Shown one piece after another: positions 1 through 29,828 of a DNA stretch of 29,828 bases. A program made the translations under genes and the position numbers. Position 1 is the stretch's first letter. The number at the start of each line of letters is the position of its first letter. The stretch comes from Sulfolobaceae archaeon (GTDB lineage: Archaea > Thermoproteota > Thermoprotei_A > Sulfolobales > Sulfolobaceae). Location: NCBI GenBank assembly GCA_038893355.1, contig JAWARQ010000009.1, forward strand, positions 1 through 29,828, read 5' to 3'. A model generated the notes under the pieces. It saw only the letters and a program-made list of their open reading frames with translations, had not been told where the DNA came from and ran no database searches.

Positions 1-162
1 TTGGCTGAGATGAATTATTCTAGGAACCCGACGTTGTTGAAGTTTTATGAGTCTCATAAGGATAGGTTGCAAGGTAAGAAGTTGTATGTTGCATTAGCGA
101 GGAAGTTGGCAAGGATTGTTTGGAGTGTTTGGTATAATAATAAGCCTTATGAGCCAAAGTGA
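1..162 (+). CDS. IS110-family transposase/recombinase, C-terminal part (cut by window edge)
   Basis: Frame 1 reads LAEMNYSRNPTLLKFYESHKDRLQGKKLYVALARKLARIVWSVWYNNKPYEPK*. The ALARKLARIVW motif is typical of the IS110 C-terminus. Confidence 0.9.
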   Translation: MAEMNYSRNPTLLKFYESHKDRLQGKKLYVALARKLARIVWSVWYNNKPYEPK

Positions 163-244
163 TTAGGAACCCTCCCCTAATCGCCACGTGGGCCTTTTAG
201 ACCCACGTGGCAATGTTAGCTTATACTATGCTTGAAATATGACC

Positions 245-257
245 GAAAGATTTATTA
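245..257 (+). promoter_or_regulatory. BRE-TATA in IS110 right end, pointing outward
   Basis: GAAAGA-TTTATTA matches the Sulfolobales BRE/TATA pattern and is conserved in the mini copies at 4572, 19664 and 27639. Confidence 0.55.
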
Positions 258-265
258 CTGAACGC

Positions 266-415
266 CCCAACGAGGGGCTTCATTCCTCACTAAGGGATAG
301 GCTTGTACGCTTCAAGAGGGCTACGAAGGCAGTAAATAGGAGCATAAGCATGATAAAGTACTCCATAGCACCAGTCTTATGGGAGAGAAGACTAATCCCA
401 GAATTTATACCCTAA
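266..415 (+). pseudogene. IS1-family transposase C-terminal remnant (ISC796-like), interrupted by the IS110
   Basis: PNEGLHSSLRDRLVRFKRATKAVNRSISMIKYSIAPVLWERRLIPEFIP* resembles the IS1 InsB tail (E..N..LR..L.RL.R.T). Confidence 0.75.
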
Positions 416-4546: not shown

Positions 4547-4885
4547 CTGACTTCTCACCGCCCTAGAGGGTGGCGTTCAGTAATAAACCTTTCGGTCATA
4601 TTTCAAGCATAGTGTAAGCTAACATTGCCACTATATAGTTTCCCCTCATCGGTTCGGGTTTACATCCTTCATTTAAGATGCAGACGAGAGATTCAGAGAC
4701 CATTCCATTATCACAACAATACCCTTATCATTCTCGTAACTGCCGGGCATTTAAGCCAAAAGGCGAGAAACCCTAACTATCTTTCGACCACAATTAGGGC
4801 AAGAGGTAGAAGAATAGCAAGGATTAACAAAAACAACAAGGATACAATGCTTCCTTGCCCGCTACTTAATCCAATATTGAACCCT
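4547..4885 (-). pseudogene. tnpB: IS200/IS605 tnpB 3' remnant with right end (ISC1316-like)
   Basis: Minus strand reads [34 protein letters not shown]...YEND...MKDVNPNR*, then a right-end hairpin CCACCCTCTAGGGCGG and GAAGTCAG; contains stops and frameshifts. Confidence 0.8.
4572..4639 (-). mobile_element. Mini IS110 derivative, family 1 (68 bp)
   Basis: AC-TATATA followed by 58/60 identity to 207-266; inserted in the tnpB right end. Confidence 0.75.
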
Positions 4886-15521: not shown

Positions 15522-15678
15522 TTTTTTAAAAAAAAACTATACTATCTATTTTATATAATTAGTAATAGCATCTCATAATATTTTGACAACCTCTTTATGC
15601 AAAACACAATAATTAATTCTGAGTAATACGGATCTAAATAGGATGTAGGAAGTTAATCCCTTGGACTCCACATCCTAA

Positions 15679-15727
15679 AGGCGTTATAAGCTCCGCCTCT
15701 AACAGACCTAAAGTTTACAACCGTAGG
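15679..15727. mobile_element. Mini insertion, family 2 (AGG-bounded, 46 bp added)
   Basis: Homologous to 25221-25266 and 27371-27419; removing it restores the tnpB end hairpin. Confidence 0.75.
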
Positions 15728-19663: not shown

Positions 19664-19728
19664 GACGTTCAGTAATAAATCTTTCGGTTGACTTTAAGCA
19701 TGGTATTAGCTAAGATTGCCTATATAGG
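19664..19728 (-). mobile_element. Mini IS110 derivative, family 1 (65 bp)
   Basis: CC-TATATA-GGCAATCTTAGC...ACCGAAAGATTTATTACTGAACG-TC. Confidence 0.72.
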
Positions 19729-28540: not shown

Positions 28541-29318
28541 AATATAACTCCTCCAAAGTTGGCTTCCTTATTTCAATATTATTCTTATCTGAAAAAAAGA
28601 ACTTATTAATCTCATCCTTCTTAACAAAATACTTTTCATCTCGTATCTTAACTACATAAATATCTTCATTAAACACTTTTTTGATCAGATCTTCTTTAGG
28701 ACCATCAAATAGAATTCTCTTATTAAGTAGAATTACTCTATCTGCTAACTTTTCAGCCTCATCTAAATAATGAGTAGTTAGTATTATCCCTTTTCCTCTT
28801 CTCCCTAAATCTTTTAGCATCTCGTGGATTAACTTTCTAGAATCTAAGTCTAATCCTACAGTAGGCTCGTCTAAGATTAGATACTTTGGGTCAAGGATTA
28901 AAATAGATGCAAGCATTACTCTCCTCTTCTGGCCTCCCGATAATTTATTTACTCTCTCTTTAGGGTTTAAGTCAAATTCCCTTATTAGTTCCTTAGCCTT
29001 ATTTTCTGCGTCTTCGACATTTCTAATCTTCGCAAAGAGCTTTATGTGGTCGTAAACGGTGAGGTTGAATATGGGCTCGCTATCTTGAGGCATCACTCCT
29101 AACAGCCTCTTTGCCTTCCTATCGTTAGGCCTAAAACCATCAATAAGAACTTCCCCTTTATCAGGCTTTAAATCACCATAAATTTGCCTTAACAATGTTG
29201 TTTTACCAGCACCGTTAGGTCCTAGAATTACTAAGATCCCTTGATTAAAACTAAAATTTATGTCCTCGTTAACTACCTTATCACCAAAGTACTTAAAAAC
29301 GTGGCTTACTTCAATCAT
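28515..29318 (-). CDS. ABC transporter ATP-binding subunit
   Basis: GPNGAGKTT, LSGGQ, DEPT, TTHY. Confidence 0.95.
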   Translation of the reverse strand: MIEVSHVFKYFGDKVVNEDINFSFNQGILVILGPNGAGKTTLLRQIYGDLKPDKGEVLIDGFRPNDRKAKRLLGVMPQDSEPIFNLTVYDHIKLFAKIRNVEDAENKAKELIREFDLNPKERVNKLSGGQKRRVMLASILILDPKYLILDEPTVGLDLDSRKLIHEMLKDLGRRGKGIILTTHYLDEAEKLADRVILLNKRILFDGPKEDLIKKVFNEDIYVVKIRDEKYFVKKDEINKFFFSDKNNIEIRKPTLEELYYEFFRKNK

Positions 29319-29493
29319 CTTAAATCACCTAATCTTCCTTTAATTAACTCTAATGATTTATTATAAACTTCATCATTATTTAATATTTCATTACATAATT
29401 CACAAATACTAGTAAATTTTTTGTTATTATATTTATAATCTAGTTTTAGTTCTTTTAATAACCTTGAAGGTCCTATTAATGTGACTGACTTCC
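29315..29493 (-). pseudogene. C-terminal fragment of a probable radical SAM protein (EpeE/YydG-like), interrupted by IS110
   Basis: KSVTLIGPSRLLKEL...KFTSICELCNEILNN; ATGA overlap with the ABC ATPase; the track's MFYI start lies inside the IS end. Confidence 0.55.
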
Positions 29494-29508
29494 TTATATA
29501 AAACATAT

Positions 29509-29654
29509 TAGTCAGATCTGCGTAATACAGATCTGACTGGGGTTGAGGCCGTTGACTTCCTTGGGCTCAAAGCTCGACGGGGAGCTTGGCCCGCCTCCAA
29601 ATTCGTACCGGAAGTTGGGCCTGAAGCCCGAATAAAACATAAGGGTGAGTATAT
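29509..29654 (+). ncRNA. Putative IS110 bridge RNA
   Basis: Perfect 11-bp hairpin 29510-29538, further GC-rich stems, and internal TGACTTCCT identical to the left flank. Confidence 0.6.
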
Positions 29655-29828
29655 ATGGAGGCCCCAGTTGCAGGAATAGATATATCAAAAGATAAGTTGA
29701 CAGTGTATTTCCAAGGTAAGTTTTACGAGTTTCCTAATAATAGGCAAGGGTTTGAGGGGGTAAAGCAAATCTTGCCTAAGGGCTGTAAGATAGGTATTGA
29801 AAGTACTGGAGTTTACCATATTAACTTA
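29655..29828 (+). CDS. IS110-family transposase/recombinase N-terminus (DEDD RuvC-like domain), cut by window edge
   Basis: MEAPVAGIDISKDKL...IGIESTGVYHINL (GID.SK and E.TG.Y motifs); GGTGA RBS upstream. Confidence 0.92.
   Translation, partial: MEAPVAGIDISKDKLTVYFQGKFYEFPNNRQGFEGVKQILPKGCKIGIESTGVYHINL

What the first reader, a model, noticed from the sequence alone, without database searches (positions are those of the whole stretch)
29486..29654. Archaeal IS110 bridge-RNA candidate whose guide matches its own insertion site
Seen: hairpin AGTCAGATCTG/CAGATCTGACT; stems AGGCC/GGCCT (29546-50/29618-22) and GGGCTCAAAGCTC/GAGCTTGGCCC. Between them, TGACTTCCTT (29553-62) is identical to the junction sequence 29486-95. 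CTGAAGCC (29621-28) resembles the right end CTGAACGCC with a one-base gap. Known: IS621 bridge RNA has a left target guide matching left target plus core. Inference: a thermoacidophile RNA-guided recombinase. The other guides cannot be assigned confidently, and GGAAGTT (29610-16) could sequester the putative guide, suggesting a different fold or a switch.
Basis: partly seen in the sequence, partly recalled or inferred. Interest (0 to 1): 0.8.

Follow-up and report, generated by a model that had tools for sequence, protein, structure and literature searches.

The report
Archaeal IS110 bridge RNA, confirmed
The last 334 bases of the window are the left end of an IS110-type jumping gene from a Sulfolobus-like archaeon, and its leader has all four guide segments of a bridge RNA like the ones recently described in bacteria.

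Summary
The 10-base identity (29486-95 and 29553-62) is real: 2 matches in the window against 0.05 expected. The contig ends inside an IS110-family element that starts at 29495, after a CT core at 29493-94.

Ninety-three distinct copies from related genomes let me assign all four guides of an IS621-type bridge RNA:
- LTG: 29552-62.
- RTG: 29576-86.
- LDG: 29606-16, a same-sense copy of the element's true right end, TATACCGGAAG.
- RDG: 29639-43.

Guide and flank covariation:
- The left flank covaries with the LTG in the same sense (0 of 20000 permutations reach the observed match).
- The right flank covaries with the RTG in antisense (0 of 20000).

The IS621-like fold is 97.3% paired across 57 sequences and has compensatory changes.

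The main guide class, including the window's, aims at the right-end tip of TnpB/IS605 elements.

A full-length relative of the recombinase matches the solved ISCro4 and IS621 bridge recombinases (E 2e-22 and 6e-21).

There is no direct RNA or activity evidence. I rate it a new member of a known kind, of moderate interest.

The parts
29485..29494 (+). Target DNA left of the insertion: left target CTGACTTC (29485-92) plus core CT (29493-94). It looks like the tip of a TnpB/IS605 right end.
   Evidence: The three left-end copies in this genome share CTGACTTCCT but differ upstream of it. Uninterrupted TnpB-element ends read CTGACTTC-CT-CC(C/T)C.. with one CT. The left junction has CT in 88 of 93 copies.
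29495..29828 (+). Left part of an IS110-family insertion sequence ('group A', 1179-1186 bp in most full copies of relatives). It is cut off by the contig end.
   Evidence: 96% identical over 343 nt to a full copy, L002. The boundaries come from the alignment of 7 full copies and from 93 distinct copies. An RNA-library contig joins the two flanks of L012 and skips 1183 nt, which is the IS plus one CT.
29495..29504 (+). Right donor (RD) end, TATATAAAAC. It also resembles an archaeal TATA box (from my own knowledge, not tested).
   Evidence: Invariant in the group A copies. Its first base covaries with the RDG in a diverged subfamily.
29510..29538 (+). 5' stem-loop (11 bp, 7-nt loop).
   Evidence: It is 96.5% paired, with 5 pairs changed on both sides. 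A diverged subfamily has TCGGGTTTG/CAAACCCGA in its place.
29547..29551 (+). 5' half of the stem that closes the target-binding loop (GGCCG). It pairs with 29587-91 (UGGCC).
   Evidence: Alifold consensus. 98.6% of cells are paired in 57 sequences.
29552..29562 (+). Left target guide (LTG), UUGACUUC-CU-U. The core positions are 29560-61; 29562 matches the first IS base.
   Evidence: 10 of 11 positions are identical to the window's own left junction. It is hypervariable among copies, with 25 variants. It covaries in the same sense with the left flank: 0 of 20000 permutations for 64 copies, and 0 of 20000 for the 26 minority-guide copies.
29563..29575 (+). Apical hairpin of the target-binding loop (GGGC UCAAA GCUC).
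   Evidence: 96.9% paired. The pair 29564:29574 appears as GU 29, GC 18 and AU 7.
29576..29586 (+). Right target guide (RTG), GACGGGG-AG-CU. The core complement is 29583-84; the handshake dinucleotide CU is 29585-86.
   Evidence: It is antisense to the right junction in relatives: L020 matches 10 of 11, L031 10 of 11, L036 10 of 11. Permutation test: 0 of 20000 for 22 de-duplicated copies. The window's own right flank is not assembled.
29587..29591 (+). 3' half of the stem that closes the target-binding loop (UGGCC).
29606..29616 (+). Left donor guide (LDG), U-ACCGGAAG-UU. It is a same-sense copy of the IS right end, ATACCGGAAG-CT.
   Evidence: ACCGGAAG stands in both places in 34 of 39 full copies. 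The sister subfamily has ACUGAAC in both places in 4 of 4 copies.
29617..29629 (+). Apical hairpin of the donor-binding loop (GGGC CUGAA GCCC).
   Evidence: 98.7-99.1% paired. In some copies its sequence is identical to the target-loop hairpin, and copies exist that are deleted between the two.
29639..29645 (+). Right donor guide candidate, AUA-AG, followed by the handshake dinucleotide GG.
   Evidence: It is antisense to CT-TAT at the IS left end. It reads AUG-AG in the 3 sequences whose IS starts with C instead of T. The sister subfamily has AUAUA-GG against CC-TATAT. ATAAGGG is present in 42 of 57 aligned sequences.
29655..29828 (+). First 58 codons of the IS110-family DEDD recombinase. The frame runs off the contig.
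   Evidence: ORF. Pfam PF01548 gives E 0.009 and 16.2 bits, below the 29-bit cut-off. 55 of 58 residues are identical to the 314-aa protein of L002. That protein has PF01548 plus PF02371 and matches ISCro4 and IS621.

Best explanation
Window 29495-29828 is the left end of an IS110-family insertion sequence ('group A', about 1.18 kb). It sits in a Sulfolobaceae-like archaeon, inserted at a CT core.

Its 160-nt non-coding leader encodes an IS621-type bridge RNA with three parts:
- a 5' stem-loop;
- a donor-binding loop, whose 5' side (LDG, 29606-16) mirrors the element's right end and whose 3' side (RDG, 29639-43) is antisense to its left end.

The DEDD recombinase would use this RNA to recombine the circular RE-CT-LE donor with a target reading about TGACTTC-CT-CCCCG. 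In these genomes that sequence is the tip of the right end of TnpB/IS605 elements.

Shown here: the boundaries, the core, guide-flank covariation for both target guides, the conserved fold, donor-guide identity with the ends, and recombinase homology.

Inferred only: that the leader is transcribed as a discrete RNA, that it binds the recombinase, and that this particular copy is active.
For: - Boundaries and core. Seven full copies align from TATATAAAAC to TATACCGGAAG with CT on both sides. CT stands at 88 of 93 left junctions, and AGCT at 41 of 41 right junctions. Empty sites carry one CT. A contig skips 1183 nt between the flanks of L012.
- LTG. The window's guide equals its own left junction at 10 of 11 positions. 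Permutation tests: 0 of 20000 for 64 copies, and 0 of 20000 for the 26 copies with minority guides and non-CTGAC flanks.
- RTG. Permutation test: 0 of 20000 for 22 copies. Two sister copies differ in the RTG (..GUAAG.. against ..GAAAG..) and in the right flank (CT-TACGG against CT-TTCG).
- Fold. 97.3% of 1947 cells are paired; 9 pairs change on both sides, against 2.0 in shuffles (0 of 500 reach it); slid controls reach at most 48%.
- Donor loop. LDG equals the right end in 34 of 39 copies. The RDG changes A to G where the first IS base changes T to C. The sister subfamily, with core CC, has compensating GG in its RTG and RDG and its own LDG-right-end match.
- Handshake dinucleotides follow the IS621 rule. 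CU pairs with the donor's AG, and GG pairs with the TC or CC that ends the left target in 60 of 88 copies (the rule was read in passages of PMC11208158).
- Recombinase. L002 is 55 of 58 identical to the window's fragment. It has PF02371 at 1.2e-27 and PF01548 at 2.1e-14, and matches ISCro4 (9t56) at 2e-22 and IS621 (8wt6) at 5.8e-21 over residues 6-313.
- Layout. The left end is 160 nt and the right end 74 nt. That matches the IS110 group, which encodes its bridge RNA in the longer left end (passages of PMC11208160).
Against: - There is no direct evidence of a discrete RNA. The four RNA-library runs are contigs only, so they show no start, end or strand and may contain DNA. No Rfam family matched: the best hits were E 0.93 and 5.7, both below the gathering scores.
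- The TATA-like left end would place a start site inside the 5' hairpin. This is my own reasoning and is not tested.
- 12 of 64 copies match their left flank at 4 or fewer of 8 guide positions. Several copies sit in flanks that fit another copy's guide (L032, L087, L090, L037).
- The LDG shows no covariation within the subfamily, and the 5 of 39 discordant copies are not compensated.
- The RDG is only 5 nt long.
- An unbiased column-by-flank scan puts the expected diagonal pairs among the top scores, but off-diagonal pairs score similarly, because the guide classes are linked.
- This copy's right end, right flank and most of its recombinase gene are not assembled. PF01548 and PF02371 found 0 matches in the 84%-complete genome. 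The activity of this copy cannot be judged.
Confidence: 0.87

Rival explanations
1. The family does use a bridge RNA, but this copy is a dead relic: a left end kept next to a truncated or lost recombinase gene, with no activity today.
For: Only 58 codons are present before the contig end. No IS110 Pfam domain was found in the genome. Relatives hold many decayed copies and solo left-end fragments. A paper on Sulfolobus says that most IS110-family elements there are decaying remnants (passage of PMC10883916).
Against: All stems and the four guide segments are intact in the window. A second left end in the genome is 100% identical over 127 nt, and a third is 96% identical. All of these lie at contig ends, which is how collapsed multi-copy repeats appear in a short-read assembly. 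One contig starts with the matching right end.
Confidence: 0.2
2. The variable segments act as DNA, not RNA. They would be recombinase-binding sites or single-stranded DNA guides within the left end, as in IS200/IS605 target selection. The leader would then be only an mRNA 5' UTR.
For: Covariation between the left end and the flanks cannot tell an RNA guide from a DNA guide. The 5' hairpin is also an inverted DNA repeat. No transcript ends are known.
Against: The recombinase is a full-length homologue of two enzymes solved with bridge RNA. The architecture copies IS621: a same-sense 5' side, an antisense 3' side, the core in all four guides, and handshake dinucleotides. G-U-type differences between guide and flank are common, such as T in the guide where the flank has C (L002, L030, L011, L020). 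Those fit RNA-DNA wobble pairing.
Confidence: 0.05
3. The 10-base identity is a chance repeat or a target-site duplication, with no guiding role.
For: A single 10-mer repeat in an AT-rich genome is not in itself proof. TGACTTCCT occurs 19 times in the 1.4 Mb genome.
Against: 0.05 matches are expected in the window and 2 are found. The internal copy lies inside the element, not at its other end. It changes together with the flank in other copies.
Confidence: 0.01

Closest known systems
IS621 bridge RNA and recombinase (E. coli; Durrant et al. 2024, PMC11208160; Hiraizumi et al. 2024, PMC11208158; PDB 8wt6)
   Same: - DEDD plus Tnp-domain recombinase, matched at E 5.8e-21 over nearly its full length.
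- The non-coding RNA lies in a left end that is longer than the right end.
- A 5' stem-loop is followed by two internal loops.
- The 5' sides pair with the bottom strand over 8-10 nt; the 3' sides pair with the top strand over 5-9 nt.
- A CT core is included in all four guides.
- Handshake dinucleotides pair with the non-cognate DNA.
   Different: - The host is archaeal, and the promoter is presumably of the TATA/BRE type.
- Each loop is capped by only a 4-bp hairpin. In some copies the two caps have the same sequence.
- The RDG is short (3 nt plus core).
- The LDG carries UU at the core positions, giving a U-G wobble.
- The natural target is the tip of a TnpB/IS605 right end.
- No experimental data exist for this element.
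ISCro4 / IS622 bridge recombinases (PDB 9t56; bioRxiv 10.1101/2025.05.14.653916, search listing and abstract only)
   Same: This is the best solved-structure match of the recombinase: E 2e-22, residues 6-313.
   Different: Those are bacterial enzymes engineered for human cells. I did not compare their RNA with this one.
ISC1229-like 'group B' IS110 elements of Sulfolobales. The name is recalled. The length fits the 1233-bp intact copy listed in PMC10883916 (passage).
   Same: It occurs in the same genomes and even in the same window (1-266). It has a homologous 5' stem-loop and a two-loop leader. Its RTG matches the right junction over 11 nt in L149, L153 and L170.
   Different: It is a different subfamily: about 41% protein identity in L170, core CC instead of CT, right end ..ACTGAACGCC, length 1217-1230 bp.
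IS1111-group elements that home into other mobile DNA (IS4321/IS5075 into Tn21-family inverted repeats; attC- and REP-targeting members). Seen only in the reference list of PMC11208160.
   Same: They are site-specific IS110-family elements whose natural targets are the ends of other mobile or repeated elements.
   Different: Those carry the guide RNA in the right end and have long subterminal inverted repeats. Here the RNA is in the left end, and the target is a TnpB-element end.

Membership tests
IS110 family (IS110 group) insertion sequence | Recombinase with an N-terminal DEDD RuvC-like domain (PF01548) and a C-terminal Tnp domain (PF02371). | tested here: inconclusive
   The window holds only 58 codons. 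PF01548 gives E 0.009 and 16.2 bits, below the 29-bit cut-off. The fragment contains GIDISK and IESTG. The 96%-identical full copy L002 has both domains, at 2.1e-14 and 1.2e-27, and is 55 of 58 identical to the window's fragment. The feature is met for the element family; for this copy only the N-terminus can be seen.
IS110 family (IS110 group) insertion sequence | No terminal inverted repeats. Insertion at a short core dinucleotide that is present on both sides, with the empty site holding one copy. | tested here: met
   The ends are TATATAAAAC.. and ..TATACCGGAAG, which are not inverted repeats. CT flanks both ends. Empty TnpB-end sites hold one CT. One contig skips the IS plus one CT.
IS110 family (IS110 group) insertion sequence | A non-coding left end longer than the right end, with the RNA encoded upstream of the recombinase. 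| tested here: met
   The left end is 160 nt and the right end 74 nt in L002. The criterion was read in PMC11208160.
Bridge RNA (IS621 type) | A target-binding internal loop. Its 5' side is same-sense to left target plus core; its 3' side is antisense to core plus right target. Both covary with the flanks. | tested here: met
   Permutation tests give 0 of 20000 on each side. The fold places both segments in one internal loop closed by 29547-51/29587-91. For the window's own copy, only the left side could be checked (10 of 11).
Bridge RNA (IS621 type) | A donor-binding internal loop. Its 5' side is same-sense to the right end plus core; its 3' side is antisense to core plus the left end. | tested here: met
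   LDG equals the right end in 34 of 39 copies. The RDG AUA-AG faces CT-TAT, with an A-to-G against T-to-C change in 3 sequences. Group B has its own matching pair and a compensated CC core. This evidence is weaker than for the target loop: the RDG is short and there is no LDG covariation within the subfamily.
Bridge RNA (IS621 type) | Handshake dinucleotides after each 3' guide pair with the non-cognate DNA and not with the cognate DNA. | tested here: met
   The CU at 29585-86 is complementary to the donor's AG and not to the target's TC. The GG at 29644-45 can pair with the TC or CC that ends the left target in 60 of 88 copies. The rule comes from PMC11208158.
Bridge RNA (IS621 type) | Transcribed as a discrete non-coding RNA that binds the recombinase and is needed for recombination. 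| not testable with these tools
   Only assembled contigs of RNA libraries were available. They cover the left end in 4 runs of 4 studies but show no ends or strand.
Rfam-curated RNA family | A match at or above the gathering score to any Rfam 15 model. | tested here: not met
   The best matches were E 0.93 and 5.7, far below the gathering scores. Whether Rfam 15 holds any bridge-RNA model at all was not checked.

The most novel reading that the evidence does not exclude
This would be a natural, currently diversifying bridge-RNA system of thermoacidophilic archaea that has not been described as such.
- It comprises two co-resident subfamilies with different cores (CT and CC) and compensating guides.
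- Group A carries at least 25 natural left-target-guide variants.
- Its dominant guide class homes into the last 16 or so bases of TnpB/IS605 right ends. One RNA-guided transposon would thus insert between the omega-RNA scaffold and the guide of another.
- Because the LTG-coding DNA is itself a copy of the target, it may serve as an internal recombination site. That would explain the solo 70-nt left-end fragments that end exactly at its CT.
Probability: 0.5. Interest if true: 0.6.

Novelty: new member of a known kind. Interest (0 to 1): 0.5.

Why it matters
Bridge recombinases are being developed as programmable genome-rearrangement tools. All the characterised ones named in the papers I saw (IS621, IS622, ISCro4) are bacterial.

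A family from organisms that live hot and acidic would offer three things:
- a thermostable enzyme-RNA pair;
- a compact RNA in which each loop is capped by only 4 bp;
- a ready-made natural experiment in retargeting, with dozens of guide variants that each have their own insertion site.

It also gives the archaeal IS110 recombinases a concrete guide RNA. Those recombinases have been discussed as relatives of Nop5 (bioRxiv 10.1101/2024.06.21.599552, passages).

For this genome, it explains why the contig breaks here. It also shows that insertions are channelled into other mobile elements rather than into host genes.

Tried and rejected
- Rfam scan of 29000-29828 at E up to 10: only two chance-level hits.
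- Pfam searches for the recombinase in the window's own genome: 0 matches. The interior of the IS is not assembled, so the window's own right flank could not be compared with its RTG.
- Plasmid collection, distant blastn with the full IS of L002: no match, so no depositor's name for the element was obtained. The names ISC1190 and ISC1229 used for orientation are recalled, not returned by a tool.
- A stem GCCUCC (29592-97) with GGAGGC (29657-62) that would cover the start codon: 60.8% of cells paired, with alignment gaps. Not supported.
- The same-sense repeat ATAAAACATA (29633-42 against 29497-506) as a guide: rejected. The 7-nt block ATAAAAC is absent from many copies that have transposed.
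- GUAUAUAU (29649-56) as the RDG: rejected, because this stretch varies among copies while the left end does not.
My first attempt at them was mis-registered by one base and was redone.
- RNA evidence: 17 RNA runs hold the left end of a relative. Four runs from four studies were laid. All are contigs, so nothing can be said about transcript ends, strand or level.
- The copy on contig C13 (junction CTGACTTCCTC-CT, guide TTGACCTC-CT) as an example of retargeting: not convincing. The normal register would still match better. A 3-nt slippage after insertion is as likely.
- Supplementary files of papers are closed. Supplementary Table 5 of PMC11208160 covers predicted bridge RNAs for ISfinder's IS110 elements. 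It may already list the Sulfolobus elements.

Full report
**What is at the coordinates.**
The window is a whole contig (C9) of a 1.4-Mb, 17-contig, 84%-complete genome. It ends at 29828, inside an open reading frame that starts at 29655. TGACTTCCTT stands at 29486-95 and again at 29553-62. These are the only two occurrences in the window, against 0.05 expected.

**Element and boundaries.**
- Two other contigs of the genome end with the same left end. C10 is 100% identical over 127 nt and C13 is 96% identical. They share sequence with C9 only from CTGACTTCC onwards.
- Contig C3 starts with the matching recombinase 3' end and the right end ..TATACCGGAAG.
- A blastn search of 41 genomes (the window's own plus 40 relatives) found the left end in 10 of them.
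- Seven full copies align from TATATAAAAC to TATACCGGAAG, with CT outside both ends and unrelated flanks.
- Over 93 distinct copies, CT precedes the element in 88. AGCT spans the right junction in 41 of 41 copies with a right flank.
- Uninterrupted relatives of the commonest target carry a single CT.
- One contig of an RNA library joins the two flanks of copy L012 and skips 1183 nt, which is the element plus one CT.
- In the window, the core is therefore 29493-94 and the element starts at 29495.

**The recombinase.**
- The window's 58 residues give only a sub-threshold PF01548 hit. They are 55 of 58 identical to the 314-aa protein of L002.
- The L002 protein has PF01548 and PF02371. It matches the solved bridge recombinases ISCro4 (2e-22) and IS621 (5.8e-21) over residues 6-313.
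- Named records with close relatives are Sulfolobaceae, Stygiolobus and a Thermoprotei MAG. More distant ones are Metallosphaera and Marsarchaeota.

**The target-binding loop.**
In alignments of 21 and 57 leaders the scaffold is nearly invariant. Two 11-nt blocks are hypervariable: 29552-62 and 29576-86.
- The first block repeats, in the same sense, the 8 bases left of the core, then the core, then one more base. Examples, written guide/flank:
  - TGACGCTC-CT against CGACGCTC-CT;
  - TTGAGAACA-CT against ATGAGAACA-CT;
  - TTACGCCT-CT against TAACGCCT-CT;
  - GACACTAT-TT against GACACTAT-CT.
- After removing copies that share outer flanks, I scored the 8 variable positions and allowed one base of register shift. 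Own-flank matches sum to 361 against 287 on re-pairing, and 0 of 20000 permutations reach it (64 copies). For the 26 copies with minority guides and non-CTGAC flanks, the sums are 145 against 97, again 0 of 20000.
- The second block is the reverse complement of the right junction. L020 has GGTGTGG-AG-CT against AG-CT-CCACAC. L146 and L077 differ in both guide and flank. The sums are 83 against 62, with 0 of 20000 for 22 copies.
- Results against this reading:
  - 12 of 64 copies match at 4 or fewer of 8 positions.
  - Some copies sit in flanks that fit another copy's guide. Possible causes are action in trans, exchange between copies, or later mutation; none of these was tested.
  - An unbiased scan of leader columns against flank positions shows the expected diagonals (29556 with -6, 29558 with -4, 29559 with -3, all same sense; 29579 and 29578 with the 4th and 5th bases right of the core, as complements). 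Off-diagonal pairs score similarly, because the guide classes are linked.

**The fold.**
- RNAalifold and my pair counts on 57 sequences support the following:
  - a 5' stem-loop;
  - an outer helix, 29539-42 with 29595-98;
  - a closing stem, 29547-51 with 29587-91;
  - a 4-bp apical hairpin, 29563-66 with 29572-75.
- This leaves the LTG and the RTG as the two sides of one internal loop, as in IS621 (definitions read in PMC11208160).
- Overall 97.3% of cells are paired. Nine pairs change on both sides, against 2.0 in shuffles (0 of 500). Slid controls reach at most 48%.
- The window's own RNA folds at -64.5 kcal/mol, z = -3.5.

**The donor-binding loop.**
- 29606-16 (U-ACCGGAAG-UU) repeats the right end ATACCGGAAG-CT. 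The 8-mer is the same in both places in 34 of 39 full copies, and the five discordant copies are not compensated.
- After a second 4-bp hairpin (29617-29), AUA-AG (29639-43) is antisense to CT-TAT at the left end.
- In the three sequences whose element starts with C instead of T, the guide reads AUG-AG.
- A sister subfamily ('group B', 1217-1230 bp) supplies the cross-check:
  - its right end, ..ACTGAAC-G-CC, is mirrored by ACUGAAC in its leader in 4 of 4 copies;
  - its left end, CC-TATAT, is faced by AUAUA-GG;
  - its RTG matches the right junction over 11 nt, including GG for the CC core (L149, L153, L170).
- The dinucleotides after the 3' guides behave like IS621 handshake guides (passages of PMC11208158). 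CU pairs with the donor's AG. GG pairs with the TC or CC that ends the left target in 60 of 88 copies.

**The natural target.**
- 37 of 93 copies have a CTGAYYTNCYT-type left flank. Of the 17 among them that have a right flank, 16 continue as CT-C(C/A)CC(G/A)CCC..GGG...
- The same sequence, uninterrupted, is the terminus of a repeated element in G000, G006 and G018.
- In G000 contig C1 it lies just 3' of a TnpB-like gene on the opposite strand. That gene is split into 196-aa and 121-aa frames, and the shorter frame has CPKC..CPSC and DRD motifs. I identified it by eye and did not scan it.
- The window's guides (TGACTTC-CT and CCCCG) fit this terminus, and the window's left flank begins it.

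- 'CTGAACGCC' is window 258-266, the right end of a group B element whose 3' part fills window 1-266. It is not the right end of this element.
- GGAAGTT (29610-16) is the donor guide. Its complementarity to the LTG exists only for the window's guide class, 1 of 25 variants.

**Literature.**
- Bridge RNAs of IS110 elements are established (PMC11208160, PMC11208158, PMC13626964; passages or abstracts read).
- PMC11208160 states that covariance models predicted a bridge RNA in 85.7% of ISfinder's IS110-group elements. Whether the Sulfolobus entries are among them is in a supplement I could not open.
- Searches for 'bridge RNA' with 'archaea' and 'IS110', and for 'bridge RNA' with 'Sulfolob', found no paper describing an archaeal bridge RNA.
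- The preprint on the Nop5 origin treats archaeal IS110 recombinases only as proteins, in the passages I saw.
- PMC10883916 describes ISC1229 as an IS110-family element without mentioning an RNA.

**Verdict.**
This is a genuine, well-supported bridge-RNA-encoding left end. It is a new member of a known kind. There is no direct RNA or activity evidence, and the state of this particular copy is unknown.

Noticed in passing
window 1-266 (+): This is the 3' end of a recombinase gene plus the right end (..ACTGAACGCC, ending at 266) of a second IS110 subfamily ('group B'), 85% identical to L149. The contig is therefore bounded by IS110-family elements at both ends. Group B leaders in relatives carry their own bridge-RNA-like guides, with a CC core.
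   Followed up: partly
window 4572-4631 (-), 19666-19720 (-), 4640-4701 (+): There are two solo remnants of the group B right end. Next to the first one is a stretch resembling the interior of the TnpB-element right end.
   Followed up: no
window 15596-15705 (+): A weak match to the covariance model of the leader (E 1.1e-4) and 70% blastn identity to 29488-29568. Possibly a decayed left-end remnant.
   Followed up: no
L014, L023, L154, L160 (and L016): These are solo left-end fragments of about 70 nt that stop exactly at the CT of the LTG-coding DNA, so the fragment is flanked by two copies of the target-like 9-mer. In 3 of 4 the next bases are TAT. In L016 the fragment joins a TnpB right end. 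This suggests that the guide-coding DNA, being a copy of the target, is itself used as a recombination site.
   Followed up: partly
L155, L156: Palindromic mini-elements of roughly 60 nt, made of the left-end terminus and its reverse complement around the loop of the 5' hairpin. They are flanked by CT and AG and occur in two genomes.
   Followed up: no
L161, L165: These copies are deleted between the apical hairpins of the target loop and the donor loop, which have the same 13-nt sequence (GGGCTTAAAGCCC) in those lineages. The two loops look like a duplication of one module.
   Followed up: no
L163, L164, L157, L159: Left-end fragments joined directly to right-flank DNA, either at the RTG or at an internal AAGCT. 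These look like deletions that remove everything up to the right junction.
   Followed up: no
G000 contig C13, 14308-14440: A third left-end copy has a 3-nt longer junction (CTGACTTCCTC-CT) and a T-to-C change in its LTG. This could be retargeting by 3 nt or slippage after insertion; I could not decide.
   Followed up: partly
window 29315-29506 (-): The 63-aa ORF listed here takes its start codon and first 4 codons from inside the insertion sequence. It is therefore either an artefact or the truncated rest of a gene.
   Followed up: no
L012, L021, L039, L029 (G018): L039 has the left flank of L012/L021 and the right flank of L029. This fits recombination between IS copies that rearranged the chromosome.
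   Followed up: no
G053 (coordinates, e.g. 1472522-1474647): Four places hold a 340-aa and a roughly 406-aa IS110-type frame, divergently oriented about 1.9 kb apart. This may be a composite repeated unit.
   Followed up: no
G000 contig C1, 64871-66040 (L046 1449-2616): A TnpB-like gene split into two frames (196 aa and 121 aa) lies on the minus strand. Its right-end terminus is an intact, unoccupied copy of the window's predicted target.
   Followed up: partly
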